Assembly: GCA_964481135.1 (NCBI GenBank)
Contig: CAYZSW010000005.1
Location: forward strand, 28,126 to 92,125
Direction of reading: 5' to 3'
DNA length: 64,000 nucleotides
From: an uncultured Candidatus Saccharibacteria bacterium
GTDB lineage: Bacteria; Patescibacteriota; UBA1384; JAMDBS01; DAOVQR01
The position numbers were made by a program, and so were the translations under genes. The number at the start of each line of letters is the position of its first letter. Position 1 is the first letter of the stretch. A model generated the notes under the pieces. It did no database searches, was not told the DNA's origin, and saw only the letters and a program-made list of their open reading frames with translations. This document shows, in pieces, positions 18,348 through 30,986 of this stretch.

Positions 18348-19586
18348 ATGGCAAACAAAGACCGAACTAAAATAAATATTGTTAAAGATACTCAATTTTT
18401 ATTTATTGACATGAATGCTTTTTTTGCTTCTTGTGAACAGCAAACAAATTTTAACCTAAGACATAAACCGGTTGCAATTGCTCCATACAAAGGTAATACA
18501 GGGTGTATTATCTCCCCAAGCTATGAAGCAAAAGCATATGGAGTAAAAACAAGCATGCTTGTTAAAAAGGCAAAAGAAATTTGTCCTAATATTATAATTT
18601 TAGAATCAAATGTATCCATGTATCTCAATATTCACCATGAAATCAAAAAAATACTTTTTTCTTTTTCTCCTTTTGTAAAAATTTTGAGCGTAGATGAAGC
18701 GGTTATTTTTCTTTCCCCGTCGGAACAGAAAACCGAATTAGCTTTTAATATTGCCAGAAAAATTAAAAATGCAATTTATCAAAAAATAGGCAAATGTATG
18801 CGTTCTTCTATTGGGATCGGTCCAAGCATATATTTAGCTAAGCAAGCTTCTGAAATAGAAAAGCCAAATGGTCTACAAGAAATAAAAATCAAAGATATAC
18901 CCAATTATTTAAGTAAAATATCTCTCACTGACTTAAAAGGTATTAATACGCGAATGAAAATTCGTTTTAATAATCTAGGAATATATACCCCACTTGATTT
19001 ATACAATACTCCGGTGCAAAATCTGAGAGAAAAATTAGGTATAGTAGGTGAATATTGGTACCTATTATTAAGAGGAAAAGATATAACCAATTTTAATACT
19101 TGTGAAAAATCAATTGGTCATTCACATGTTTTAGAACCAAAATATCGTAAATGGGATTTTGCATGGTCTGTGTGTCAGAAATTAATTTCTAAAGCAGGAT
19201 ATCGTTTAAGAAAAACAGGTCTTACGGCAGGTGGTGTTTATTTACAAGTAAATTGTTTTAATAAATATAGTTTTCATAAAGCTTTCAAAACTAGAAGCTT
19301 TGCGGACGATTTTGCTTTTAATCGATACATTAAATTTTTATTTCAACAGATAGATAAATCTTATAAACCAATTAGGGTAGCGGTAGGATTATTCAATCTT
19401 AGTAAAAATAATTCTTTTCAAAACGATTTATTTTTAAAAAATTATAAAAACAAATTAATTTATGATATTGTTGATAAGATCAATAATAAATACGGTGCTT
19501 TTACAATTAAAAGTTCATCGATACTTTTGGCAGATGATTCTGCCCCAAATCGGATCTCATTTGGCAGACCAGATAATAATTTTTAA
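18348..19586 (+). CDS. dinB: DNA polymerase IV (Y-family translesion polymerase)
   Basis: FLFIDMNAFFASCEQQ...KPVAIAP...GVKTSMLVKKA...SVDEA UmuC/DinB motifs. Confidence 0.85.
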   Translation: MANKDRTKINIVKDTQFLFIDMNAFFASCEQQTNFNLRHKPVAIAPYKGNTGCIISPSYEAKAYGVKTSMLVKKAKEICPNIIILESNVSMYLNIHHEIKKILFSFSPFVKILSVDEAVIFLSPSEQKTELAFNIARKIKNAIYQKIGKCMRSSIGIGPSIYLAKQASEIEKPNGLQEIKIKDIPNYLSKISLTDLKGINTRMKIRFNNLGIYTPLDLYNTPVQNLREKLGIVGEYWYLLLRGKDITNFNTCEKSIGHSHVLEPKYRKWDFAWSVCQKLISKAGYRLRKTGLTAGGVYLQVNCFNKYSFHKAFKTRSFADDFAFNRYIKFLFQQIDKSYKPIRVAVGLFNLSKNNSFQNDLFLKNYKNKLIYDIVDKINNKYGAFTIKSSSILLADDSAPNRISFGRPDNNF

Positions 19587-19650
19587 ATAAAAATTTGAAT
19601 TTAATAATTCTTAAAGATATAATAATATATAAGATACAGAAAATAAATCA

Positions 19651-19740
19651 ACTACCTCGCAGCAAGCTACGAGGTATAAATTGAAATAATTTATACGAAG
19701 CATGCTTCGAGGAGTTCACCCACTTGTCCGCCTTTGGCGG
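19651..19740. repeat. GC-rich triple-hairpin element at island boundary (REP-like)
   Basis: tacctcg-cagcaagcta-cgaggta; cgaagcatgcttcg perfect palindrome; ccgcc-ttt-ggcgg; shares acctc/gaggt core with REPs at 28.2-29.7 kb. Confidence 0.5.
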
Positions 19741-19767
19741 ATCAAAAATATTAATTATAGGAGATTT

Positions 19768-20085
19768 ATGAAAACCAAAAAATGTGATTGCGAAAAAGAT
19801 TTTGAAAAAGAAATAGAAAAGGAATTTGGTAAAAATTGGGAAGAAAAGTTGGAGAAAAAGTTTGAAAAATGGGGAGATAAATTTGAAAAATACGGGAGTT
19901 GTTGTAATACTCATTCTTCATCAAGTTTCATGGGCGGAGGATTTTACTTTCTGTGTTTCCTTGGTACAGCGATTTATTATATCGGACAAGCACCAGATTT
20001 TTGGATGGGAGTTGTTGGAGTACTCAAAGCCCTTGTCTGGCCAGCAATGTTAATTTATGAAGTATTCACTCGTTTAAATATGTAA
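19768..20085 (+). CDS. small Cys-rich protein with C-terminal TM segment (hypothetical, 105 aa)
   Basis: ATG 19768 after AGGAG SD; MKTKKCDCEKDFEKE...GSCCNTHSSSS...hydrophobic tail; ORF-track start 19702 would run through GC hairpins. Confidence 0.5.
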   Translation: MKTKKCDCEKDFEKEIEKEFGKNWEEKLEKKFEKWGDKFEKYGSCCNTHSSSSFMGGGFYFLCFLGTAIYYIGQAPDFWMGVVGVLKALVWPAMLIYEVFTRLNM

Positions 20086-20144
20086 TAAACCATAAAAAAC
20101 CAATTGTACTAACAAGCATCAAAACAATTAAAACAACAATAACC

Positions 20145-20173
20145 AAAAAGTACACCTCCGAGGTGTACTTTTT
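20145..20173. repeat. perfect palindromic hairpin flanking RAYT copy 1 (left)
   Basis: aaaaagtacacctccgaggtgtacttttt; identical sequence again at 20867-20897. Confidence 0.7.
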
Positions 20174-20189
20174 GTGGTATAATAATTAT

Positions 20190-20864
20190 ATGGTTCAATA
20201 TAGAAAAGATAAATTGGTAAATGGGGAATACTATCATATATTCTCTAGAAGTATTGCTAAATATGTAATTTTTAATAATGATAAAGAATATTTGCGCATG
20301 CTAGATTCTATTAATTTATTGAGATTTATTGATTTTGATTATAAAATGTCAAAATTTAATGAATTAAAAATACAAAAACAAAATGAGATTATCAATATAC
20401 TAAAGACTAACAATAAAACTTTTACCGATATTGTTGCATATTGTATTATGCCTACTCATATTCATTTGATATTAAAACAAAATATTGATAATGGCATTAC
20501 AAAATATATGGCTAAACTTTTAAATAGTTATGCAAAATATTTTAATACTAAACATAAAAGAAAAGGACATCTTTGGACTGATAGATTTAAAAGCGTGCTC
20601 ATTACAAACAATGAGCAAATACTGCATCTTACAAGATATATTCACTTAAACCCTGTTTCTGCTAAATTAGTTAGGTCACCTAAAAAATGGCAGTACTCTT
20701 CATTTTTTGAATACATTAATCCAGATAAAAATAACATCTGCACTTACAAAAACATATTTGACCTAAAGACAGAAGAATATGAAAAATTTGTTTTGAATAG
20801 AATTGATTATCAGCAAAAATTATCACTCATAAAAAATCTGATTATAGATGAATATTCAGGATAA
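20190..20864 (+). CDS. IS200/IS605-like Y1 (HUH) transposase / REP-associated tyrosine transposase (RAYT), copy 1
   Basis: MVQYRKDKLVNGEYYHIFSR...YCIMPTHIHLIL (HuH motif)...GHLWTDRFKSVLI...LTRYIHLNPV; paralog at 28901-29575; start at ATG 20190 (ORF-track GTG 20163 lies in hairpin). Confidence 0.72.
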   Translation: MVQYRKDKLVNGEYYHIFSRSIAKYVIFNNDKEYLRMLDSINLLRFIDFDYKMSKFNELKIQKQNEIINILKTNNKTFTDIVAYCIMPTHIHLILKQNIDNGITKYMAKLLNSYAKYFNTKHKRKGHLWTDRFKSVLITNNEQILHLTRYIHLNPVSAKLVRSPKKWQYSSFFEYINPDKNNICTYKNIFDLKTEEYEKFVLNRIDYQQKLSLIKNLIIDEYSG

Positions 20865-20866
20865 CC

Positions 20867-20897
20867 AAAAAAGTACACCTCCGAGGTGTACTTTTTT
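20867..20897. repeat. perfect palindromic hairpin flanking RAYT copy 1 (right)
   Basis: aaaaaagtacacctccgaggtgtactttttt immediately after RAYT stop. Confidence 0.7.
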
Positions 20898-21161
20898 GGT
20901 TTAGAGGTTGAGATAGGGGAATATAAGGAGTATAATTTGAAGTAGGAAAAGAGGATTAGAATTTGTCATTCTGAGCGAAGCCGAAGAATCTATCACTACA
21001 AATTCTAAATTTACTTTATCCTACAATATTACCTACCAGTATATAGTCAGAAAATAGATTCATAAATATCATATTCTCATTGGTGTCATTCGCATATATT
21101 AGCGTATTAGCATCTTTATCGTTCGAACGAAAGTGAGAACTACCAGATTTCAATGTAGGCA

Positions 21162-21210
21162 AATACAAATACCGGCAATACGCCAATGATTTAGTAAATA
21201 GAGATTTTTA
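21162..21210 (+). repeat. 48-bp direct repeat, copy 1 (partner at 21852-21900)
   Basis: ccggcaatacgccaatgatttagtaaatagagatttttataaaaatgaa vs ctggcaatacgccaacgatttggtaaatagagattttataaaaaatgaa. Confidence 0.65.
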
Positions 21211-21274
21211 TAAAAATGAATATAATAAATAAGGACTCAAAATATCAGAAGAGCAATAATGAAATAAGGAAAAT

Positions 21275-21847
21275 ATGAGTGAAACTATAATATATAACCC
21301 AAACGAATTTAATCCGAATTACATAACAGAACTCTCAAAAAATGCTGAAAGTGTAATTTTTGATAAAATTTTAGAAAAAGCAAAAGATCTAGGAGTTCAA
21401 ACTAGTTCAATTAATTTAGATAAAAGTTATCTATTACAATTAATTAAAAAATATATACCAGATAGATTAGATAAAATTAATAATAAAATAAACGAAAATA
21501 TTGTAGATGCTTCTACTGAACAAATATTAGATAAAATATTAAATGTAGATAAAATTATAAAACACGATAATAAATATATTTTTATTGATATTACCACTGG
21601 AAAAGCAAGTTCCATTATTAATAAGTTGAAAAAAATAAATACAAATTATAAATCTGGAATATTTAATGAATTAAAATGCCATAATTTTATTGTATTAAGA
21701 ATAAATAAAGATGATGAAGAAATTTCAGATGATAAAGTATTAAATATTTTTACACAATTGGAAAATTTAAATACATTTAGTAGTGTAATTGATCTTAAAA
21801 ATACCGAACCAACTATATCTAAAAGATACTTTACTAAATATAAATAA
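21275..21847 (+). CDS. hypothetical protein (190 aa) bracketed by direct repeats
   Basis: ORF with AGGAAAA SD; no recognisable motifs; Asn/Lys/Ile-rich. Confidence 0.5.
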   Translation: MSETIIYNPNEFNPNYITELSKNAESVIFDKILEKAKDLGVQTSSINLDKSYLLQLIKKYIPDRLDKINNKINENIVDASTEQILDKILNVDKIIKHDNKYIFIDITTGKASSIINKLKKINTNYKSGIFNELKCHNFIVLRINKDDEEISDDKVLNIFTQLENLNTFSSVIDLKNTEPTISKRYFTKYK

Positions 21848-21851
21848 AATA

Positions 21852-21900
21852 CTGGCAATACGCCAACGATTTGGTAAATAGAGATTTTATAAAAAATGAA
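21852..21900 (+). repeat. 48-bp direct repeat, copy 2
   Basis: see 21162-21210; 4 mismatches. Confidence 0.65.
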
Positions 21901-21964
21901 AATCCATCTCTGAAAAAATCAACTTGTTAGTTAAAATTTGTAAAAAATTGCGCGATTATTAAAT

Positions 21965-22273
21965 TTGCTAGAAAAATTAAAACAAGCATTAGTAGCATTT
22001 TGTAAAAAAGAAGGTGTAGTTGTAGTTATTGGAGCAGATAATAAAATATCTGTAAAACCAACACAAAGTATTAAATTCCCGTTAAAAGGAACACCAGAGC
22101 GTGATAAATTAGTTAAATTATTAAAGCATATTCACAAATACAATGAAGTAGTAGATTTAAATGTTAGTATGCTTTCAAATGTTTGTGATAATTGGGATAA
22201 AAAAGATATGGAAAAGATAAAAAAATTCCAAACTATAACAAATGATTTTAAATTAAGTATTAGTAAAAAATAA
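21965..22273 (+). CDS. hypothetical protein (102 aa, TTG start)
   Basis: ORF upstream of R-M operon; MLEKLKQALVAFCKKEGVVVVIGADNK...; no motif recognised. Confidence 0.4.
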   Translation: MLEKLKQALVAFCKKEGVVVVIGADNKISVKPTQSIKFPLKGTPERDKLVKLLKHIHKYNEVVDLNVSMLSNVCDNWDKKDMEKIKKFQTITNDFKLSISKK

Positions 22274-22507
22274 CCTGTTAAAAAATGCGGAAATATGGTA
22301 AGATTGCGATATAAAGAAAAGAAAAAAAGGTATAAATATTAAGGACATAAGATGTCAGATGATAAAAAATAACTAAAAGTTTAAAAGAAATTTTAATTAA
22401 TAAATTGTCTTTCAAAGTCTATTCGAGTAAAATAATTATAGAATTGAATAGGAGGAAATATCAATAAATCATATAATAATCAAGTTTTTTATCAAGATGC
22501 TAGAAAC

Positions 22508-23314
22508 ATGAAGGAATTGCCAAATAACTCTGTTCATTTAATTATTACAAGCCCTCCATACTTTAATATTAAAGATTATTCCAAAGATGGCTATCAGTCG
22601 TCTAAAATTTCTAAAAAACAAAAAGGACAAATAGGAGATATTAAAAATTATAAAAACTACATTAAGGAAATGCTCAAAGTATGGAAAGAATGTCAAAGAG
22701 TACTTAAACCAAACGGAAAATTAATAATTAATGTTCCTTTAATGCCTATGCTTAAAAAAAGTCTTAATACTCATTACAATAGACATATATTCGATATAAA
22801 TGCTGCAATTGAACAATCAATATTAGTAAATACTAAATTATACTTATACGACATATATATTTGGAATAGAACAAATACAAGTAAAAAGTTAATGTTTGGT
22901 TCATATCCATATCCTAGAAATTTTTATGCACAAAACACCTGTGAATTTATTACAGTTTATGTAAAAGATGGTAAACCAGATAATAATATATGTAGAACAA
23001 CAAAAGAAAAAAGTAAGTTAAGTGAAAAAGAATGGATAACTTTCACAAAACAAATTTGGGATATACCAATTCCTAATAAAAGTGACGTTGCTTTTGGAAA
23101 GCATTCCGCTATTATGCCAGAAGAAATTGTCAGAAGATGTATTAAATTATTTACTTTTATCGATGATACTGTACTTGATCCGTTTGCAGGATCAGGAACG
23201 ACATTAAAAATTGCAAAAGAATTAAAAAGAAATTATATAGGATATGAAATAATGAGATCATACGAGCATATTATTAAACAAAAATTAATGCAAACCAAGC
23301 AAAAATTATTATAA
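22508..23314 (+). CDS. DNA methyltransferase, beta-class N6-adenine/N4-cytosine (M1); true start probably upstream non-ATG (~22460)
   Basis: motif IV IITSPPY before motif I VLDPFAGSGTT (beta-class order); conserved N-terminal region continues upstream of first ATG. Confidence 0.8.
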   Translation: MKELPNNSVHLIITSPPYFNIKDYSKDGYQSSKISKKQKGQIGDIKNYKNYIKEMLKVWKECQRVLKPNGKLIINVPLMPMLKKSLNTHYNRHIFDINAAIEQSILVNTKLYLYDIYIWNRTNTSKKLMFGSYPYPRNFYAQNTCEFITVYVKDGKPDNNICRTTKEKSKLSEKEWITFTKQIWDIPIPNKSDVAFGKHSAIMPEEIVRRCIKLFTFIDDTVLDPFAGSGTTLKIAKELKRNYIGYEIMRSYEHIIKQKLMQTKQKLL

Positions 23315-23317
23315 ATT

Positions 23318-24106
23318 ATGTTAGATAAAAATAAAGTATACTTAATGGATTGTATAAAATTTTTAAGCAAAATTGACAAGCAGTCAATTGATTTAGCAGT
23401 AATTGACCCACCTTATAACCTCAAAAAAGCAAAATGGGATACTTTTAAAACACAAAATGATTTTCTAGATTTTACATTTTGTTGGTTAGATGCATTAATA
23501 CCTAAACTTAAACAAACTGGTAGTTTATATATTTTTAATACCCCGTTTAATTCTTCTTTTATTTTAAAATACTTACTAGATAAAAAAATGATTTTTCGCA
23601 ATTGGATTACTTGGGATAAGAGAGATGGCTTATCAAATGGAACTAAAAAATATGCAAATGGACAAGAAACAATTTTATTCTTTACTAAATCTCAAAATTA
23701 TACTTTTAATTACGATGAAATTCGTATTCCGTATGAGTCAAAAAGTAGAATTAAACATGCTGAAAAAAAAGGAATTTTAAAAAATGGAAAAAGATGGTTT
23801 CCAAATCCTAAAGGAAAATTATGTTCTGAAGTATGGCATATCTCTAGCGAAAGACACAAAAATAAAATTAACGGTAAAACTCCAAAATTATCTCATTTAA
23901 CGCCTAAACCATTAGATATGATTGAAAGAATTATTACAGCAAGTAGTAATCCAGGTGATTTAATATTAGATTGTTTTGTTGGTAGCGGTACAACAGCGAT
24001 AGCTGCAAAAAAAATAAATAGGAATTTTATTTGCTCTGATAATAATAAATACTATATTGAATTAACCAAAAGGAATTTAAAAAAATATGACAGTTATAAA
24101 AATTAA
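23318..24106 (+). CDS. DNA methyltransferase, beta-class N6-adenine/N4-cytosine (M2)
   Basis: VIDPPYN motif IV; ILDCFVGSGTTAIAA motif I; 3 nt after M1 stop. Confidence 0.82.
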   Translation: MLDKNKVYLMDCIKFLSKIDKQSIDLAVIDPPYNLKKAKWDTFKTQNDFLDFTFCWLDALIPKLKQTGSLYIFNTPFNSSFILKYLLDKKMIFRNWITWDKRDGLSNGTKKYANGQETILFFTKSQNYTFNYDEIRIPYESKSRIKHAEKKGILKNGKRWFPNPKGKLCSEVWHISSERHKNKINGKTPKLSHLTPKPLDMIERIITASSNPGDLILDCFVGSGTTAIAAKKINRNFICSDNNKYYIELTKRNLKKYDSYKN

Positions 24107-25313
24107 TCCTGGCAATAAGGCTTTAGAATTTATTGATTCTAGAATTAGTGATGAAAAATATCGCGGAGTACCATCGTCGGAACATAACAGATACGATATG
24201 ATAAAAATTGTTTCTATTCTTGAATTATTAAATAAATACGCTCCTAATCAGCAGCTTATGAGTATTAGAACAACAGATGTTTCTAAAAGACCAGAAAATG
24301 AATCGAAAGAATATGTTTATGCAAAATTTTGCAATGAAACTAAACAAAAAACAGGAATTGGAACACAAGATGCAATGCGCAAAAATTTATTTGTTGATTT
24401 ACATAGAATGAATTTTATTATTAGATATGATAAAAATAAACAACAAACAGATCCTTTTTCAAAACAACAAGTTAAATTTGTATCGATTAGTAAACAAGGG
24501 TTAAAACTAATTAAGGCAAAAAATTTGCTTGATAAATATTTTATTTTTTCTAAAGGAATTGATCAACTTGTGGGAGGATACATAGATATTATATTAGATA
24601 TTCTAAGAGATAAAGAATATAAAATCGATAAAATTAGTATTTATGAATATATGTTCTTTATTTCTGCAATTAATACAAAATCGAGTTTTAATATAAGTAC
24701 GGAATATGCTGTTAAATTAATCAAACATTACAGAAATCTGACTCCAATTCAAAGAAAATCAGTAATAGAAACATTAAAAGTTACATTAAACCCAAAAAAC
24801 TATGATGGGAATAAAAATAAAAAAAAGGATTTTCATAATTGGCATAACAAAACTGCTCAAATATTTCATTTATTGAATCAAACCGTTTATTTTGAAGTCA
24901 GAGGTGAACAATTAGTACTTAAATCAGGAAAAGACAGTTATGAGACAATTTCTGCAAAATTAGATAGATCACTAAATGAAAAATATCAATATTTTATCAA
25001 TCACAATATTGACAAAAAGCCAGGATTTGAATTGCATCATATTGTACCCATTTCTTGGTCAGAAAACATCCATCATTTTAAAATTCTCGATAAATGGGAA
25101 AATATGTTATATATTGATGGGTTTAGTCATGCAAAAATTACTCAAAATAAAAATAGAAACATTATTCTGCAAATAAAAAATAAAGACTTAAAATTACTAG
25201 ATTACTCCGATAATGAAGTTTATCTACAATATATGAAAAATGTAGTATACCAATACAAACAACAACCGATTCTTAAAAAATATAACAAGGACCTCTTATC
25301 AACTATTAAATAA
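24087..25313 (+). CDS. putative restriction endonuclease with C-terminal HNH-like motif
   Basis: Overlaps M2 by 20 nt (coupled); C-terminus ELHHIVPISWSEN...WENMLYIDGFSHAKIT resembles HNH (HH...N...H); rest unrecognised. Confidence 0.5.
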   Translation: MTVIKINPGNKALEFIDSRISDEKYRGVPSSEHNRYDMIKIVSILELLNKYAPNQQLMSIRTTDVSKRPENESKEYVYAKFCNETKQKTGIGTQDAMRKNLFVDLHRMNFIIRYDKNKQQTDPFSKQQVKFVSISKQGLKLIKAKNLLDKYFIFSKGIDQLVGGYIDIILDILRDKEYKIDKISIYEYMFFISAINTKSSFNISTEYAVKLIKHYRNLTPIQRKSVIETLKVTLNPKNYDGNKNKKKDFHNWHNKTAQIFHLLNQTVYFEVRGEQLVLKSGKDSYETISAKLDRSLNEKYQYFINHNIDKKPGFELHHIVPISWSENIHHFKILDKWENMLYIDGFSHAKITQNKNRNIILQIKNKDLKLLDYSDNEVYLQYMKNVVYQYKQQPILKKYNKDLLSTIK

Positions 25314-25470
25314 AGTAGTTTTTATAAAATGCCAATACTAAGTTGATTAAATGGTTTGTTTATTATTCTTAATTTACTGCGACATACCGGGGTATTGACG
25401 AACGGTGGGCAAATTTAAATAAACTTTATGATCTAACTAACGATGAAATAAAAATTGTGGAAGGGAAAAA

Positions 25471-25833
25471 ATGAATAAAGTAAGTATTGATGAAGAAATA
25501 TCAAATTTAAAATTAAGATTAAGTGAATTAGAAGATATTCATCCTGATTATACTTCCCTAGAACTAAAAGATTTACAAACTAAAACACTAACTACACACG
25601 CTCATTTAGAGAATGCTCTTGATAATAGAATACGTTTAAAAATTTTAGGATTAAGAGAAATAAAAAACTCAGAAAAATGGGACAAAGCTGCTCCAAAATT
25701 ACAACAATTATTAAATCTTTTATCATACAGAAATAAATTAGAAATAGTGAAAAGTTACAATGATTCATCAGATATTTTTATTAGTTCTCTTGGTCGCGTC
25801 AATACATATAGAATTAAATTTGCACATCCATAA
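25471..25833 (+). CDS. small protein ending in R-x4-H (RIKFAH) HEPN-like motif; frame stays open past TAA to 25974
   Basis: ...VNTYRIKFAHP*; same frame after TAA encodes GAKLGEKF...RDLLRSLNEAYEQMDKYFSKIMKDKNY* to 25974. Confidence 0.45.
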   Translation: MNKVSIDEEISNLKLRLSELEDIHPDYTSLELKDLQTKTLTTHAHLENALDNRIRLKILGLREIKNSEKWDKAAPKLQQLLNLLSYRNKLEIVKSYNDSSDIFISSLGRVNTYRIKFAHP

Positions 25834-25980
25834 GGGGCTAAATTAGGAGAAAAATTTAATAATAATACTTGCAAAAATAAACAAAATATTCGGGATTTAC
25901 TAAGATCTCTTAATGAAGCTTATGAGCAAATGGATAAATATTTCAGTAAAATAATGAAAGATAAGAATTATTAAAAAAAT

Positions 25981-26553
25981 ATGACAAACAAAAATAAAAT
26001 CAATAAATTATTTGAATTATTAAACCAAATCCCTCAAAATCAAAGACCAAATTTATTAATTTATCTTGATAATGAATTCATAATTAGTTATAAAGGTATA
26101 TTAAAATCAGCTTATTCAAGATATAAAAATGAAGATGTAAGGAATTATGATTTTAATGAAAGAGGAGATGTTTTAGAATTTTTTACGAATATTGAATACT
26201 TAATTAACAAAATCATAATTGCATATTTAAAAATTGATTATACTAATAATGAAAAAGCAGATGCGTTATTAAATACCTCAGACTTATTTTACAAAGTTAA
26301 ACTTTTAAATGAATGGGGGTTATTTTCAAGTAAAGATACGGAATTATTTTTTTGTTTAAAATCGATAAGAAATGGCTTTGCGCATACTTGGGTAATAGAA
26401 AGTATTAAATATAAAGGAAAAAGTTATAAACAAAATATTAGTAAATTTAATGAAGATGCTGCAATTATATGGAAATTGTTACTAAATATTTATAAAAAAT
26501 ACCAAATAGATATTGATGAAATTATTGAAAAATTAGAATTGAGAAATAAATAA
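25981..26553 (+). CDS. HEPN-motif protein, Abi_2 (AbiD/AbiF)-like candidate abortive-infection RNase
   Basis: all-alpha composition; CLKSIRNGFAHTW matches R-[N]-x-x-A-H HEPN/Abi_2 motif. Confidence 0.5.
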   Translation: MTNKNKINKLFELLNQIPQNQRPNLLIYLDNEFIISYKGILKSAYSRYKNEDVRNYDFNERGDVLEFFTNIEYLINKIIIAYLKIDYTNNEKADALLNTSDLFYKVKLLNEWGLFSSKDTELFFCLKSIRNGFAHTWVIESIKYKGKSYKQNISKFNEDAAIIWKLLLNIYKKYQIDIDEIIEKLELRNK

Positions 26554-26568
26554 CAACCTAACCCAACC

Positions 26569-26613
26569 CAAGCTTTTTTCTTCGACTACGCTCAACACAG
26601 GCAAAAAAGCTTG
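26569..26613 (+). promoter_or_regulatory. 11-bp-stem hairpin between HEPN and OLD genes (possible terminator/attenuator)
   Basis: caagctttttt ...23-nt loop... aaaaaagcttg. Confidence 0.35.
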
Positions 26614-26636
26614 TTGCAAAAGATGTTTATATAGAT

Positions 26637-28091
26637 ATGAAAAACGAAATTAAAACTAAAAGAATATTACATAATGGTAAATCTGAAGATTTAACTTTAA
26701 AAAATCTTGAAAAAATTAATATTTTATTTGGAAAAAATGGTTCAGGAAAAAGTAGTTTTCTAAGAAATTTATATCAAAATAATGACAGTGAATTTCATTT
26801 AGTAATACCGGAAAGAGGTGGAAATATACAACATAATTCAGGTATAGCTGATCAGGAATTTAATCCTAATGAAAGAAAAAATGTAAGAAAACATAATTCT
26901 GATAATAGCTATAGAGAAAGAGCTATATCGCGAACATCGATTATACCAAGTAGCATCGGCCGTAAATTAATGGGCGGCGAAACACCTTTTAAACTAGATA
27001 ATTCTGAAATTATAGAATTATTTAGCATATTATTGCCAGAATTTAAAATTTCTTTTTCGAATCAATCACCATACCATCTAGAGATTCATAAAAACTATGA
27101 TAATAATGAATTAAAAGTAAATAATGTAGATGAATTATCTTCTGGACAAGCAGAAACAATATCTTTAGCCGCTGATATAATTACACAGGGTGTTATATGG
27201 AACAATCAAGATAAAACATTATTAATTGATGAGCCTGATGCTCATTTACATTTAGATTTACAAAACAGATTTTCAATTTTTATATCAGAAATTTCAAAAA
27301 GATTTAATATTCAAATAATTATTGCAACACATAGTCCTGCATTAATTGCTAGTTTATTAAGTTTATCTGATGATATTGGAATATTTTGTCTAGATTTATT
27401 TTCAGAAGAAATTAACGCAGTTAAAAAATCTAATCAAACAATATTTAGTAATCTTTTAAATATTGATTTAGGATTATCTGTTTTGTTAAAAAGGAAAATA
27501 ATAATTTTAGAAGGTAATGATGATTATTTAGTTTGGAATCAAGCTTGCAGATGCCCTAAATTTGATGATATTGCAATAATTCAAGCAAATGGTGATGATA
27601 TTATGCGATATAAAAGAAATGCAGAAAAAATTATTTTATCTGTTTTAGATATAGATAAGCAAGTTGGAATTACCATGAGAGATAAAGACAATAATTCTGG
27701 AAAAAATAATGATAATTCTACTATTTTGCCATTAAAACGTCTTCAGTGTTATAGTTTGGAAAATTTATTTTTAACAAAAGAGGTATTAAATAGTATTAAA
27801 CCAAATATTGATTTTGTATCAGAAATGAATAAATTAAAGATAAAATTAAATAAAAAAGAAAAAAGTGAGTTAGATAATATTATTAATGACAAAAAGGTAA
27901 CAAAAATATCTAAAGAGCTATTAATTAAAATTCATCATAAAATTGACGAACATTATAGTTCAAGAGATTGGCGAATAATTTTAGGAAAATACTTAGGGAA
28001 CAATAAGCCCACAGGAGAGATTTTAGACTTTATTGGAAAAGATATAGTTAACTATATTTGGGATAAAAAAATGACCATACAATCTGAATAG
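26637..28091 (+). CDS. OLD-family ABC-ATPase/Toprim nuclease (class 1 OLD / GajA-like)
   Basis: Walker A FGKNGSGKSSFL; Walker B LLIDEPDAHLH; H-loop ATHSP; Toprim start IIILEGNDDYLV and ANGDD. Confidence 0.72.
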   Translation: MKNEIKTKRILHNGKSEDLTLKNLEKINILFGKNGSGKSSFLRNLYQNNDSEFHLVIPERGGNIQHNSGIADQEFNPNERKNVRKHNSDNSYRERAISRTSIIPSSIGRKLMGGETPFKLDNSEIIELFSILLPEFKISFSNQSPYHLEIHKNYDNNELKVNNVDELSSGQAETISLAADIITQGVIWNNQDKTLLIDEPDAHLHLDLQNRFSIFISEISKRFNIQIIIATHSPALIASLLSLSDDIGIFCLDLFSEEINAVKKSNQTIFSNLLNIDLGLSVLLKRKIIILEGNDDYLVWNQACRCPKFDDIAIIQANGDDIMRYKRNAEKIILSVLDIDKQVGITMRDKDNNSGKNNDNSTILPLKRLQCYSLENLFLTKEVLNSIKPNIDFVSEMNKLKIKLNKKEKSELDNIINDKKVTKISKELLIKIHHKIDEHYSSRDWRIILGKYLGNNKPTGEILDFIGKDIVNYIWDKKMTIQSE

Positions 28092-28248
28092 AAATTAAAA
28101 TAAGGAATCCATAAGGGACGGTTCTGGTTCGATTAGATTTATCATGAGTAATGTCAAAGTACTCACCACCGACTTCCCACACCTTACCGCCCTTTTCATT
28201 ATTTATAAATTCAACTACACCCCACACACCCCACCGACCTACACACCT

Positions 28249-28322
28249 CACCGACCTCGTAGGTCAGAGTAAATTTTACAGGTTCAAGACCTACTCCAAC
28301 CTACGAGGTCAGAGTAAATTGG
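28249..28322 (+). repeat. REP-like palindromic element, copy a (preceded by degenerate caccgac arms from ~28218)
   Basis: caccgacctcgtaggtcagagtaaattttacaggttcaagacctactccaacctacgaggtcagagtaaattgg. Confidence 0.7.
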
Positions 28323-28382
28323 CATCAAAACTAAAATATATCCGGTTGTTAGTATTCAATACGCGTATGGTATAATTAAGAT

Positions 28383-28730
28383 ATGATTCCGTATAAAACA
28401 AAATCTCAAGAAATTCCCGGTACAAATTTAGGAGAAACATACAGAAGTGCTTATTTTAAAAAAGAAAAGATATTTTTTGATTTTTTCTGGAATCATCTAA
28501 AACAAAAATCTCCTAAAGAAAGATTTAAAAGATTAAAATTATTTAAATCTGCAATAGAAGTAATTAAAAATTCTAGAAATAAACCAGAAACTAAGACTAA
28601 TCCAAATAAGAAAACTGAAATATTTTATAGGTTTGCTGGTCTTACTAAAAGTCAGTTATTTATTGTTCAAATTAAAGAAAATAAAAGAAGTAAAAATAAA
28701 TATTTAATGTCTTGTTTTTCTATAAAATAA
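28383..28730 (+). CDS. hypothetical basic protein (115 aa) embedded between REP copies
   Basis: ORF MIPYKTKSQEIPGTNLGETYRSAYFKK...; Lys-rich; no motif. Confidence 0.4.
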   Translation: MIPYKTKSQEIPGTNLGETYRSAYFKKEKIFFDFFWNHLKQKSPKERFKRLKLFKSAIEVIKNSRNKPETKTNPNKKTEIFYRFAGLTKSQLFIVQIKENKRSKNKYLMSCFSIK

Positions 28731-28829
28731 AAAGATCTCCGCCTAAGTGGAGTATGGAAACTCATGGCCGAGAACTTTTCTATAATAATTATTACAAAGA
28801 TTATATTTTTTGTCAATGTTGAAAACTTA

Positions 28830-28906
28830 CACCACGCCGACCTCGTAGGTCAGAGTAAATTTTACAGGTTCAACATCTACTCCGACCTACGAGGTCAAAG
28901 TTAACC
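28830..28906 (+). repeat. REP-like palindromic element, copy b
   Basis: caccacgccgacctcgtaggtcagagtaaattttacaggttcaacatctactccgacctacgaggtcaaagttaacc. Confidence 0.7.
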
Positions 28907-29575
28907 GGCATAATTTTCAATAATTAAACTTTTTATTGCAGACAGCTGTCTTTGATAATCAATTCTATTATTTACAAATTCTTTATACTTTTTTGGATCA
29001 ATCTCTAATATATTTTTATAATTGCATATTTTAGATGCTGTTTTTTCTAGGTATTCTTTATACGAGCTAAATTGCCAATCAAAAGGATTACTTACTACAT
29101 TAGCAGAAACCGGATTAAGATGAATATACCTAGTCAGATGTAATAGTTGTTCATCGTCTTGAACTCTGACGCTTTTAAATCGGCTAGACCAAAGTGGTCC
29201 AGATCGATGATGTTTTGTGTTAAAATATTTTGAGTAGCTATTAGAAATTTTTGCGATATATTTAATAATTCCTAGATTTTTATTTTGTCGGATTATTAGA
29301 TGAAAATGAGTCGGCATGATGCAATAGGCAACTATATCAACCAATGTTTTGTTTTCAATACGCAATTTTTCCAATTCAATAAATTGATTTTTATCACTTA
29401 ATTTTTTGAAATGTGAAAATTGATAATTAAAGTTTTTAAATCTTAATATGTCAATGAGTTCAATCATTCTTTGACATTCTTCACTGGAACTAAATATCAC
29501 AAAACCCGCAATACTGCGATTGTAAATATGATAACACTCTCCATTTACAAGCTCATCTTTTCTATACTGCACCAT
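28901..29575 (-). CDS. IS200/IS605-like Y1 (HUH) transposase / RAYT, copy 2
   Basis: MVQYRKDELVNGECYHIYNR...YCIMPTHFHLII...GPLWSSRFKSVRV...LTRYIHLNPV; ~60% identical to copy 1. Confidence 0.72.
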   Translation of the reverse strand: MVQYRKDELVNGECYHIYNRSIAGFVIFSSSEECQRMIELIDILRFKNFNYQFSHFKKLSDKNQFIELEKLRIENKTLVDIVAYCIMPTHFHLIIRQNKNLGIIKYIAKISNSYSKYFNTKHHRSGPLWSSRFKSVRVQDDEQLLHLTRYIHLNPVSANVVSNPFDWQFSSYKEYLEKTASKICNYKNILEIDPKKYKEFVNNRIDYQRQLSAIKSLIIENYAG

Positions 29576-29592
29576 ACTCCAATTATATCATA

Positions 29593-29671
29593 CACCACAC
29601 CGACCTCGTAGGTCAGAGTAATTTTTACAGGTTCAAGACCTACTCCGACCTACGAGGTCAGAGTAAATTGG
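29593..29671 (+). repeat. REP-like palindromic element, copy c
   Basis: caccacaccgacctcgtaggtcagagtaatttttacaggttcaagacctactccgacctacgaggtcagagtaaattgg. Confidence 0.7.
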
Positions 29672-29730
29672 TTAAAATAATAAATATGATATAATATAAA
29701 TATAATATTAGTATTAATAAAAGGAGGAAT

Positions 29731-29928
29731 ATGAAAGCTCTAAAATGGATTGCCTTGATTTTGATAATCGTAGGTGGTCTTAACTGGGGTTTAGTTGGAC
29801 TCTTTAATTTTGATCTAGTTGCAACAATTTTTGGAGACATGTCTACACTTTCAAGAATTGTTTATAGTTTAGTTGGTTTAAGTGCAATTTATATTGCATT
29901 TGTAAGTCCAAGCATGATGAAGGACTAA
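29731..29928 (+). CDS. DUF378-like small membrane protein
   Basis: AGGAGG SD; MKALKWIALILIIVGGLNWGLVGLFNFDLVATIFG... two TM helices. Confidence 0.65.
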   Translation: MKALKWIALILIIVGGLNWGLVGLFNFDLVATIFGDMSTLSRIVYSLVGLSAIYIAFVSPSMMKD

Positions 29929-29945
29929 TTTAATAAAACTATTTA

Positions 29946-29986
29946 AAAACACCCTATGTATTATGGGGTGTTTTTTTAAATTAAAC
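29946..29986 (+). terminator. rho-independent terminator
   Basis: aacaccc-tatgtattatg-gggtgtt followed by TTTTTTT. Confidence 0.6.
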
Positions 29987-29999
29987 AAATAAAAATAAA

Positions 30000-30986
30000 G
30001 TGCAAAAAACAGTAAATAATATTTGTGATATAATAAAATCAAATATTAAACATTTAGGATTTTTTATGTCGGAAATTAAAAAATATAATCCAGAAAATAA
30101 TCAAATCAAGCAAGATGATAAAAATTTAGGCAAAAATAAAATTACTAGAAGAGAATTTTTGAAAAAATCAGGTCTTGCTCTTTTAGGATTAACTTTGTTT
30201 GGTACTAAAGCTTTAGGAAAAGCCGAGAAACAGCCAGATAAGAAATTATCAGATCAGCCAGAAGCTAAACTAGAGCCAGAAAAGCCCAAAGTTGAAGAAA
30301 AAGAAAACAAACTAGAAATTGATGAAAACTATAAAGATAAGATTGATGAGAAAGTTAAAAAAGAAATCAATAATATTTTTAAAACAAATAATTTTGATGA
30401 TTTAATAAAAATATGTGAAAAAGTACAAGGATATTCTGAATCAGTAAAAAAATATGCAAAAGAATATAATGTAGACGAAAGATATCTTTATGCCATAATT
30501 TTTGTTGAATCCAAGGGCGACCCTTCTGCTTACAATGAAAATTCCGGAGCATTTGGTTTGTGTCAGTTTACTCAAGACACAGCACAGCAATTTAATCTTT
30601 CCGACAGAGGAAATGAAGATGATTCAATAAGAGCAACAGCCAAATATTTGCAGTATTATAAAAATTTTATTGGTCGAGATGATTTGAATATTACTTCGTT
30701 TAATATTGGCTACGGTAGATTGCAAGAATTACTGGAGAAATTTACCGATAAAAAAATTCAACAATTTCCTAAAGAATTAGTAATTTCAGAAGAACTGTCT
30801 TATCCAAAAATTTATTTTGAGGCAACCAAAGAAGCTCACCCAAACACTAATTTATATATGAATAAAGAGCTTGGTGAAGAGGGAAAGAATTATTATTTTA
30901 AAATATTAGCAGCAATAGAAGTGTTAAAAATGCATCGCAAAGATCCTGAAAATTTCAAAAGATTAAGCCAAGAAAATTTTAAGTAG
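30000..30986 (+). CDS. lytic transglycosylase (SLT domain) with twin-arginine signal peptide
   Basis: TRREFLKKSGLALLGL Tat motif; ESKGDPSAYNENSGAFGLCQFTQDTA SLT catalytic region; alternative ATG start at 30066. Confidence 0.7.
   Translation: MQKTVNNICDIIKSNIKHLGFFMSEIKKYNPENNQIKQDDKNLGKNKITRREFLKKSGLALLGLTLFGTKALGKAEKQPDKKLSDQPEAKLEPEKPKVEEKENKLEIDENYKDKIDEKVKKEINNIFKTNNFDDLIKICEKVQGYSESVKKYAKEYNVDERYLYAIIFVESKGDPSAYNENSGAFGLCQFTQDTAQQFNLSDRGNEDDSIRATAKYLQYYKNFIGRDDLNITSFNIGYGRLQELLEKFTDKKIQQFPKELVISEELSYPKIYFEATKEAHPNTNLYMNKELGEEGKNYYFKILAAIEVLKMHRKDPENFKRLSQENFK

What the first reader, a model, noticed from the sequence alone, without database searches (positions are those of the whole stretch)
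25471..28091. Candidate undescribed defence module: tandem HEPN (Abi_2-like) proteins followed by a stand-alone OLD-family ATPase-Toprim nuclease
Two adjacent ORFs carry the HEPN RNase motif R-[NI]-x-F-A-H (Abi_2/AbiD/AbiF-like) and are all-alpha. A long hairpin (26569-26613) separates them from a co-directional 484-aa OLD-family protein. Its motifs (G-x-N-G-S-G-K-S Walker A, DEPDAHLH, ATHSP, Toprim LEG...DD) are clear. Known OLD contexts are Gabija (with a UvrD helicase), retron Eco8, PARIS (AriA/AriB) and class-1 stand-alone OLDs. None of these pairs with Abi_2-type HEPN proteins, so this HEPN(x2)+OLD arrangement may be a new combination. It lies inside an R-M/transposon island, consistent with defence.
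Basis: partly seen in the sequence, partly recalled or inferred. Interest (0 to 1): 0.7.

Follow-up and report, generated by a model that had tools for sequence, protein, structure and literature searches.

The report
Defence island genes, not a module
The three genes are real (one broken and one intact HEPN RNase-type gene, then an ATPase-Toprim nuclease gene), but they occur together only in this genome, so this is an ordinary defence-island cluster and not a new three-gene system; the nuclease's usual neighbour is a restriction-modification gene.

Summary

The proposed HEPNx2+OLD module fails its own refutation test. About 59 independent loci carry ORF3-family genes, and none holds an ORF1- or ORF2-family gene. 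The loci examined for HEPN2 homologues (four informative, two on short contigs) and the two for ORF1 homologues hold no ORF3-like gene and no tandem HEPN.

In the close (Patescibacteria) clade, ORF3 homologues lie directly downstream of R-M genes of four types (I, II, IIG, ISP) in 8 of 9 loci, often overlapping them. In the window the HEPN pair sits inside that R-M-nuclease junction.

Verdict: independent defence genes in an island bracketed by IS200-like transposase genes. ORF3 is a compact, probably autonomous, R-M-linked PARIS/OLD-like nuclease. Interest is low to moderate.

The parts
22508..23314 (+). N6/N4 DNA methyltransferase 1 of a type II R-M system
   Evidence: Pfam N6_N4_Mtase E 1.8e-48
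23318..24106 (+). N6/N4 DNA methyltransferase 2
   Evidence: Pfam N6_N4_Mtase E 7.9e-61
24087..25313 (+). Type II restriction endonuclease
   Evidence: PADLOC REase_II E 2.4e-130, full-length match
25471..25974 (+). ORF1: nonsense-truncated HEPN-like gene. The called ORF is 25471-25833 (120 aa). An in-frame TAA lies at 25831-25833, directly after RIKFAHP, and the ancestral frame continues to the stop at 25972-25974.
   Evidence: Sequence. Homologues P0273 (170 aa, 56% id) and P0274 (165 aa) align through the post-stop region. hhalign to the HEPN2 family gives probability 40%, E 3e-4, including the RxxFAH motif. The same 120-aa call appears in three assemblies.
25981..26553 (+). ORF2 (HEPN2): intact stand-alone HEPN-domain protein with catalytic-type motif R130-N-G-F-A-H135. 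Predicted RNase.
26570..26612 (.). A/T-rich inverted repeat in the 83-nt ORF2-ORF3 spacer; not a demonstrable terminator or RNA element
   Evidence: MFE -11.3 kcal/mol, z -0.88. Not picked up by the terminator scan. Single copy. No Rfam family.
26637..28091 (+). ORF3: single-polypeptide ABC ATPase (res ~1-260) + Toprim (res ~285-385) + C-terminal helical domain. A compact PARIS-fusion/OLD-like nuclease.
   Evidence: Pfam AAA_21 and AAA_15 above their cut-offs. The best PADLOC model is AriAB, E 7e-18. Family alignment A1. AF2 pLDDT 90.3. Foldseek matches PtuA, GajA and Eco8 OLD. hhalign to an AAA+DUF4435 fusion gives 99.6% and runs through the Toprim.
20163..20864 (+). IS200/Y1 transposase-like gene with flanking 29-nt palindromes (20145-20173, 20868-20896); left edge of the island
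   Evidence: Pfam Y1_Tnp E 2e-10; repeats D11 and I5
28901..29575 (-). Second IS200/Y1 transposase-like gene, inverted relative to the first, with 93-nt hairpin repeats at 28243-28335, 28829-28921 and 29592-29684; right edge of the island
   Evidence: Pfam Y1_Tnp E 6.6e-10; repeats D1 and I1-I4

Best explanation
The region is the 3' part of a mobile-element-bracketed defence island in a low-GC, probably Patescibacteria, genome. It holds independently acting genes in one orientation: a type II R-M system, a dead HEPN gene (ORF1), an intact stand-alone HEPN RNase-type gene (ORF2), and a single-gene ABC-ATPase-Toprim nuclease (ORF3). ORF3 belongs to a compact (~480 aa) family related to fused PARIS (AriA-AriB) and OLD nucleases.

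Shown: the domain identities; the nonsense mutation in ORF1; the absence of any conserved HEPN-ORF3 neighbourhood; and the tight linkage of ORF3's close relatives to R-M genes.

Inferred by analogy with PARIS, OLD and PrrC: ORF3's ATPase half senses an infection cue, plausibly an anti-restriction factor or a failure of restriction. It then licenses the Toprim (E292, D349/D351) to cut tRNA or DNA and abort infection. ORF2 acts separately as an Rx4H RNase toxin/effector, of the kind often found beside R-M systems. The HEPN pair looks like a later insertion into an ancestral R-M-nuclease junction.
For: Domain identity of ORF3. HEPN identity of ORF2. ORF1 pseudogene.

No co-occurrence: phmmer and profile HMMs find ORF1- or HEPN2-family ORFs only in copies of the window itself, among 65 loci (about 59 independent) that carry ORF3-family genes. 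Loci of HEPN2 homologues (L001, L153, L154/155, L156-L158) and ORF1 homologues (L159, L160) lack ORF3-like genes and lack the other HEPN. No neighbour cluster is shared across the family. No HEPN-clan Pfam family appears among those matched by at least 2 of 103 neighbours.

R-M linkage in the close clade: L005 HsdS (4-nt overlap), L006 HsdM (3-nt gap, with HsdS downstream), L007 DpnI-like + MTase (overlap), L008 HsdS, L148 type IIG, L149/150 EcoRI-like MTase (overlap), L151 HaeIII R-M (2-nt gap), L152 type ISP (4-nt gap). Also L030, L041 and L047 in the distant clade.

Autonomy: an E. coli family member stands alone between yfgI and guaA. Most distant-clade members have unrelated neighbours.

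Literature: PARIS exists as a single-gene fusion and is triggered by anti-restriction proteins (PMC9122126). ABC-ATPase defence genes are often embedded in other systems (bioRxiv 10.1101/2024.01.29.577857). DUF4145 and pEK499_p136 HEPN genes occur in R-M operons (PMC3710099).
Against: No experiment. ORF3 does not reach the Pfam threshold for DUF4435 or OLD-like_TOPRIM, so the PARIS/OLD analogy rests on sub-threshold profile matches, motifs and a predicted fold. The trigger and substrate are pure inference. All genes from 21275 to 28730 are co-directional with short spacers, and no convincing internal promoter or terminator was found, so co-transcription and some functional cross-talk in this one genome cannot be excluded. 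Only 9 close-clade loci besides the window were available. HEPN2-family contexts were few, and some were on short contigs.
Confidence: 0.75

Rival explanations
1. One reading: the HEPN gene(s) and ORF3 form one multi-gene defence system, with a HEPN RNase effector plus an OLD-type ATPase-nuclease. It would be a new combination specific to this lineage.
For: The genes are adjacent and co-directional. There are 6 nt between the ancestral ORF1 stop and the ORF2 start, and 83 nt between ORF2 and ORF3. They lie inside a defence island. A precedent exists for ABC ATPase + HEPN in one system (PrrC/RloC, PMC3710099).
Against: None of about 59 independent ORF3-family loci has either HEPN family. No HEPN2- or ORF1-family locus examined has an ORF3-like gene or the tandem HEPN arrangement. 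ORF1 carries a premature stop right after its catalytic motif. Each family is found on its own elsewhere.
Confidence: 0.06
2. ORF3 is not autonomous but a dedicated accessory of the adjacent R-M system. It would either guard the R-M complex physically, as PrrC is held by EcoprrI, or degrade DNA after restriction in organisms that may lack RecBCD-type nucleases. The HEPN genes would be passengers.
For: In 8 of 9 close-clade loci the homologue is immediately downstream of an R-M gene, with overlaps or gaps of at most 30 nt. In L006 it is embedded between hsdM and hsdS. In L149 it follows a MTase with no REase in view. Fic and RhuM genes sit in the same operons, as with PrrC (PMC3710099).
Against: The partner R-M systems are of four unrelated types (I, II, IIG, ISP), which argues against a specific protein-protein interface. 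Most distant-clade members and the E. coli member have no R-M neighbour. L037 in the close clade has none in view. In the window, 1.3 kb with two other genes separates ORF3 from the REase.
Confidence: 0.17
3. The cluster has no defence role. ORF3 would be a housekeeping ABC/SMC-like ATPase and the HEPN ORFs decaying remnants.
For: ORF1 is a pseudogene. ORF3 is annotated only as 'AAA family ATPase' in public records. Some distant homologues sit next to uvrA or dnaK.
Against: The Toprim catalytic residues are invariant or nearly so across the family. The best profile matches are all defence nucleases. Distribution is patchy (28 of 5426 E. coli genomes, beside an integrase remnant). There is recurrent R-M, integrase and resolvase context. 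ORF2's catalytic motif is intact and invariant in its family.
Confidence: 0.02

Closest known systems
PARIS, single-gene AriA-AriB fusion form (Rousset et al. 2022, PMC9122126; structures 8UX9/8V45)
   Same: ABC ATPase (AAA_15/AAA_21) followed by a Toprim in one polypeptide. The best PADLOC model is AriAB (E 7e-18). hhalign to a fused AAA+DUF4435 protein (P0105) gives 99.6% and spans the ATPase C-half and the whole Toprim core, including the EG-x-D, DxD and ExENL motifs. The AriA chains are among the best PDB sequence matches. The link to restriction systems fits an anti-restriction sensor.
   Different: ORF3 is much shorter (484 aa, against 660-700 aa for fusions and about 460 + 300 aa for AriA + AriB), so the ATPase inserts are reduced. 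ORF3 does not reach Pfam DUF4435. AriB is not found by the C-terminal-domain profile in the PDB. Trigger and substrate are unknown.
Class 1 (stand-alone) OLD family nucleases (P2 Old, Thermus scotoductus OLD 6P74; PMC10568477)
   Same: Single-gene ABC ATPase + C-terminal Toprim with Glu and DxD. The profile match to 6P74 runs from the ATPase into the Toprim start. OLD-like_TOPRIM is the most frequent sub-threshold Pfam hit of the C-terminal domain (11/16). There is no helicase or RT partner.
   Different: Below the Pfam threshold (13.2 vs 23.2 bits). Smaller than typical OLDs (525-590 aa). The close clade is R-M-linked, whereas class 1 OLDs are described as not adjacent to defence genes.
HEC-04 (Payne et al. 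2024, bioRxiv 10.1101/2024.01.29.577857): validated single-gene ATPase-Toprim defence embedded in Hma systems
   Same: Same size (490 aa) and architecture, with almost the same spacing of Walker A Lys, Toprim Glu and DxD (K62/E319/D375/D377 vs K38/E292/D349/D351). It is also 'embedded' in another defence system. The ATPase domains are homologous (hhalign 97.7%).
   Different: The alignment covers only the ATPase. The E. coli member of ORF3's family shows no significant BLAST similarity to HEC-04. They are different sequence families.
PrrC/RloC anticodon nucleases embedded in type I R-M operons (PMC3710099)
   Same: An ABC-ATPase-based effector sitting inside or next to R-M operons, together with Fic/Doc- or RhuM-type genes (seen in L005 and L008). 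The concept is a second-line defence released when restriction is blocked.
   Different: The PrrC effector is a fused HEPN domain, whereas ORF3's is a Toprim. The HEPN genes in the window are separate, unlinked proteins.
DUF4145 / pEK499_p136-type HEPN proteins (Anantharaman et al. 2013, PMC3710099)
   Same: ORF2's family has the Rx4H motif and a HEPN fold, and its weak Pfam hits go mainly to DUF4145 (17/73) and, for ORF2 itself, pEK499_p136. Both Pfam families are reported in R-M operons.

Membership tests
OLD family nuclease | N-terminal ABC ATPase with Walker A, Walker B/D-loop and H-loop | tested here: met
   AAA_21 58.4 bits (cut-off 27) and AAA_15 41.4 bits (cut-off 32.1). GKNGSGKS, DEPDxHxH and THS are invariant in the family. 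The fold matches PtuA, GajA and Rad50.
OLD family nuclease | C-terminal Toprim with catalytic Glu and DxD | tested here: met
   E292, G293 and D349 are invariant, and D351 is nearly invariant. The AF2 model shows a beta-alpha-beta-alpha-beta-beta unit at 287-368. 6P74, GajA and Eco8 OLD alignments run into this region.
OLD family nuclease | Pfam OLD-like_TOPRIM (PF20469) at gathering score | tested here: not met
   13.2 bits against a cut-off of 23.2 (E 0.14) for ORF3. It is sub-threshold in 11/16 family members.
PARIS (fused AriAB) | AAA_15/AAA_21 ATPase plus DUF4435 (PF14491) Toprim in one protein | tested here: inconclusive
   The ATPase criterion is met. ORF3 gives no DUF4435 hit at E<=1, and 7/16 family members hit sub-threshold (best 3e-4). 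PADLOC AriAB is the best model (62.6 bits), and hhalign to a DUF4435 fusion gives 99.6%. The DefenseFinder fusion profile could not be run.
PARIS (fused AriAB) | Activation by anti-restriction proteins (Ocr) and tRNA cleavage by the Toprim | not testable with these tools
   Needs experiment. The only indirect support is the R-M linkage of the close clade.
Gabija (class 2 OLD) | Adjacent UvrD/PcrA-like helicase GajB | tested here: not met
   No helicase gene within several kb of ORF3. None recurs in family neighbourhoods.
Retron Eco8 (class 3 OLD) | Adjacent reverse transcriptase and msr/msd ncRNA | tested here: not met
   No RT ORF. No Rfam retron RNA in 19500-30500. The NCBIfam Eco8 effector scores 37.6 bits against a cut-off of 250.
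HEC-04 | Sequence-family membership over both domains | tested here: not met
   hhalign aligns only the ATPase. BLASTP of the E. coli family member against HEC-04 is not significant.
HEPN superfamily (ORF2) | Conserved Rx4-6H motif | tested here: met
   R130 and H135 are invariant, and N131 and A134 are nearly invariant, in 73 sequences.
HEPN superfamily (ORF2) | HEPN helical fold | tested here: met
Abi_2 / AbiD / AbiF (PF07751) | Match to the Abi_2 profile | tested here: not met
   ORF1 and ORF2 give no Abi_2 hit at E<=1. None of the 73 HEPN2-family members hits it at E<=0.01. PADLOC gives no Abi hit.
HEPN superfamily (ORF1) | Intact ORF spanning the whole domain | tested here: not met
   An in-frame TAA follows RIKFAHP directly. 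The homologues are 165-170 aa and align past it.
Proposed HEPNx2+OLD module | Conserved co-occurrence of the families in other genomes | tested here: not met
   0 of about 59 independent ORF3-family loci. None of the HEPN2-family loci or the 2 ORF1-family loci examined.

The most novel reading that the evidence does not exclude
In Patescibacteria, the compact (~480 aa) PARIS/OLD-like ATPase-Toprim clade would be a dedicated 'restriction guard'. It would be transcriptionally and translationally coupled to whichever R-M system is present (types I, II, IIG, ISP, or even a lone MTase). It would fire when restriction is blocked, or finish off restricted DNA in hosts that may lack RecBCD-type nucleases. 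The window would then show a further layer, a HEPN RNase cassette inserted into that junction.
Probability: 0.25. Interest if true: 0.45.

Novelty: new member of a known kind. Interest (0 to 1): 0.22.

Why it matters
As proposed, the finding would have added a new multi-gene defence system, and the evidence removes that claim. Three modest points remain.

(1) There is a coherent, unnamed ~480 aa ABC-ATPase-Toprim family related to PARIS fusions and OLD nucleases. It has an E. coli member (WP_085458947.1) that could be tested directly.

(2) Its Patescibacteria clade is almost always fused operonically to R-M genes of very different types. This adds an example to the 'embedded second-line defence' idea in a phylum whose immune systems are little studied.

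(3) A stand-alone HEPN family of 186 clusters has no Pfam model of its own.

None of these points would surprise a specialist.

Tried and rejected
(1) Abi_2/AbiD/AbiF identity for the HEPN ORFs: no profile support.

(2) ORF2 as an orphan: the word-indexed search found only one homologue, but the exhaustive HMMER search found 186 clusters.

(3) The hairpin as a terminator or ncRNA: not better than shuffles, no T-tract, no Rfam hit, single copy.

(4) ORF3 as HEC-04: only the ATPase aligns, and the E. coli family member is unrelated by BLAST.

(6) A PDB search with the C-terminal domain profile alone: no meaningful hits.

(7) Phage or plasmid carriage of ORF3: no phage record, one viral contig with a distant member, and one 'plasmid' hit that is really an E. 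coli chromosome.

(9) A 477-aa gene upstream of a HEPN2 homologue (L154) as a possible ORF3 relative: no similarity.

(10) The genes downstream and upstream of ORF1 homologues (L159, L160) as a second HEPN: hhalign probability below 1%.

(11) The weak PD-T4-10_B hit of ORF1 (E 0.006): treated as noise.

(12) Recoding or read-through of the TAA: no bacterial code reassigns TAA and nothing supports it. It was not tested further.
Full report
**1. What is there**

The window is AT-rich (about 29% GC). The stretch 21-28 kb is even lower, at 0.23-0.27. On the + strand lie:
- two N6/N4 DNA methyltransferases (22508-23314 and 23318-24106) and a type II restriction endonuclease (24087-25313; PADLOC REase_II E 2e-130);
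- ORF1 (25471-25833, 120 aa);
- ORF2 (25981-26553, 190 aa);
- ORF3 (26637-28091, 484 aa).

Two IS200/Y1-transposase-like paralogues in inverted orientation (20163-20864 + and 28901-29575 -) bracket the island. Each has its own palindromic repeats.

**2. ORF3**

Pfam places the N-terminal half in AAA_21 and AAA_15, above their cut-offs.
- The best PADLOC model is the fused PARIS protein AriAB (E 7e-18, residues 160-436). It is followed by NsnB, AriA, PtuA, the retron I-B ATPase-Toprim and GajA.
- NCBIfam gives only far-sub-threshold hits, such as the retron Eco8 effector.
- The protein has about 100 full-length homologues of about 480 aa.
- In a 35-sequence alignment the Walker A (GKNGxGKS), DEPDxHxH, HS, EGxD, D349 and E375 positions are invariant. 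D296, D351 and N376 are nearly invariant.
- A PDB profile search finds AriA, PtuA and retron ATPases for the ATPase. It also finds T. scotoductus OLD, Eco8 OLD and GajA, with alignments that run into the Toprim start.
- The AF2 model is confident (pLDDT 90.3). It shows a beta-alpha-beta-alpha-beta-beta unit at 287-368, followed by a helical C-terminal domain.
- Foldseek aligns the model over its full length to GajA and Eco8 OLD, with low TM-scores because domain orientations differ.
- The isolated C-terminal domain gives only sub-threshold Pfam hits: OLD-like_TOPRIM 11/16, DUF4435 7/16 and DUF3226 7/16 members.
- hhalign to a protein annotated AAA+DUF4435 (P0105) gives 99.6% probability through the entire Toprim core.

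ORF3 is therefore an OLD-type ABC-ATPase-Toprim protein in the broad sense, and it is closest to single-gene PARIS fusions. It is 180-210 residues shorter than those fusions.

It has the same size and residue spacing as the validated HEC-04 protein, but it is not the same sequence family.

**3. ORF2**

The indexed search suggested a near-orphan. The exhaustive HMMER search found 186 representative clusters of about 190-200 aa.
- R61, R130 and H135 are invariant, and the motif reads RNxxAH.
- Members hit several HEPN-clan Pfam families weakly: DUF4145 17/73, plus HepT-like, Cthe_2314, RiboL-PSP, MAE_28990, pEK499_p136 and Swt1. None hits Abi_2.
- The AF2 model (pLDDT 93.6) gave non-significant Foldseek hits.

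The HEPN assignment holds. The 'Abi_2-like' label does not.

**4. ORF1**

The ORF stops at a TAA immediately after RIKFAHP, but the same frame continues for 46 more codons to 25974.
- Its only two homologues are 170 and 165 aa. They align with the window sequence on both sides of the stop and have K or D at the stop position.
- The same 120-aa call occurs in three assemblies.
- hhalign of the read-through sequence against the HEPN2 family aligns the RxxFAH motifs (probability 40%, E 3e-4). Reciprocal HMM hits are weak.

ORF1 is thus a nonsense-truncated, distantly HEPN2-like gene that has lost the helices after the catalytic motif. That it is non-functional is an inference.

**5. The hairpin**

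The inverted repeat at 26570-26612 is real. However, it is A/U-rich, has a large loop of about 20 nt and no T-tract, folds no better than shuffles (z -0.88), is unique in the window, and matches no Rfam family.

**6. Is HEPN+ORF3 a module?**

No.
- I collected 65 loci with ORF3-family genes (about 59 independent) from genomes, metagenomes, assemblies, E. coli and one viral contig.
- Single-sequence phmmer and profile HMMs of both HEPN families find hits only in the three copies of the window itself.
- All-against-all clustering of neighbours shows no partner shared across the family.
- No HEPN-clan family is matched by two or more of 103 neighbours.
- HEPN2 homologues sit next to an ADH/GMC oxidoreductase pair, an HTH+ImmA-like pair beside a ThiF/ubiquitin-like cluster, or RadC.
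- ORF1 homologues sit next to unrelated small genes.
- None of these loci contains an ORF3-like gene or the other HEPN.

This is the result the finding named as refuting.

**7. What ORF3 does travel with**

In the close clade (47-59% identity, Patescibacteria MAGs) the gene directly upstream is an R-M gene in 8 of 9 loci:
- HsdS (L005, 4-nt overlap; L008);
- HsdM, with HsdS further downstream (L006, a true embedding);
- a type II MTase after a DpnI-like enzyme (L007, overlap);
- a type IIG enzyme (L148);
- an EcoRI-like MTase with no REase in view (L149/150, overlap);
- HaeIII R-M (L151, 2-nt gap);
- a type ISP enzyme (L152, 4-nt gap).

L037 is the exception. Fic/SoFic and RhuM genes share these operons.

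In the distant clade (about 30% identity) only L030, L041 and L047 follow HsdR or ResIII genes. Other members sit next to uvrA, dnaK, integrases and so on. An E. coli member stands alone beside an integrase remnant in 28 of 5426 genomes.

In the window, the 1.3 kb between the REase and ORF3 is exactly the HEPN pair. That suggests a secondary insertion into an R-M-nuclease junction (inference).

**8. Mechanism**

Shown: the domain composition, the conservation of catalytic residues, and the neighbourhood statistics.

Inferred from PARIS (PMC9122126, PMC11464382), OLD (PMC10568477), PrrC (PMC3710099) and embedded ABC-ATPase systems (bioRxiv 10.1101/2024.01.29.577857): ORF3 acts on its own as a sensor-effector. 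The ATPase detects a phage cue, plausibly an anti-restriction factor. The Toprim then cleaves tRNA or DNA and aborts infection. ORF2 is a separate Rx4H RNase effector of the R-M-associated HEPN kind. ORF1 is inactive.

A stricter dependence of ORF3 on the R-M system is possible but less likely, because the partner types are so diverse and there are stand-alone members.

**9. Novelty and score**

The claimed new module is not real as a module.

ORF3 and ORF2 are new members of known kinds: PARIS/OLD-type ATPase-Toprim nucleases and HEPN RNases beside R-M systems. The R-M coupling of the Patescibacteria clade fits published ideas about embedded, anti-restriction-triggered defences. Interest is low to moderate (0.22).

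Noticed in passing
window 20145-20173, 20868-20896 (around 20163-20864 +): An identical 29-nt palindrome, AAAAAGTACACCTCCGAGGTGTACTTTTT, flanks the left IS200/Y1_Tnp-like gene on both sides. This is a REP/RAYT-like or IS200-end-like arrangement.
   Followed up: partly
window 28243-28335, 28829-28921, 29592-29684: Three copies (83-100% identical) of a 93-nt repeat, each holding a ~25-nt inverted repeat (GACCTCGTAGGTC...). Two of them flank the right Y1_Tnp-like gene (28901-29575 -), and the third lies upstream of the unknown 115-aa ORF at 28383-28730. The spurious Rfam miRNA hits here are hairpin-driven.
   Followed up: partly
window 21167-21223 and 21847-21903: A 57-nt direct repeat (88% identical), with a terminator-like hairpin on the minus strand, brackets an unknown 190-aa ORF (21275-21847) that has no family match.
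   Followed up: no
L149/L150 3871-6452: An EcoRI-like methyltransferase overlaps the start of an ORF3 homologue by 4 nt, with no restriction endonuclease gene in view. A GmrSD/HNH type IV enzyme and a Bro-N protein follow, and an alanyl-tRNA-synthetase-like gene and a T4SS coupling protein precede.
   Followed up: no
L162 9030-10499 (E. coli NZ_OZ547136.1 424256-425725): WP_085458947.1, annotated 'AAA family ATPase' (489 aa), is a full-length member of ORF3's family (26% identity over the whole length, E 4e-31). It is present in 28 of 5426 complete E. coli genomes, between yfgI and guaA next to an integrase fragment, and it is distinct from HEC-04.
   Followed up: partly
L153 735-5916: The closest HEPN2-family representative in the exhaustive library (P0123) follows an HTH + Peptidase_M78 (ImmA-like) pair. 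It lies next to a ThiF/E1 + multi-ubiquitin-like gene cluster, which may be another defence island.
   Followed up: no
window 18348-19586: A DNA polymerase IV (DinB) gene lies just upstream of the island's left transposase gene (NCBIfam E 6e-59, below the equivalog cut-off).
   Followed up: no
NZ_CP134663.1 (PLSDB record): A 4.9-Mb E. coli replicon is filed in the plasmid collection as 'plasmid unnamed1', with almost no annotation. It is evidently a chromosome.
   Followed up: no
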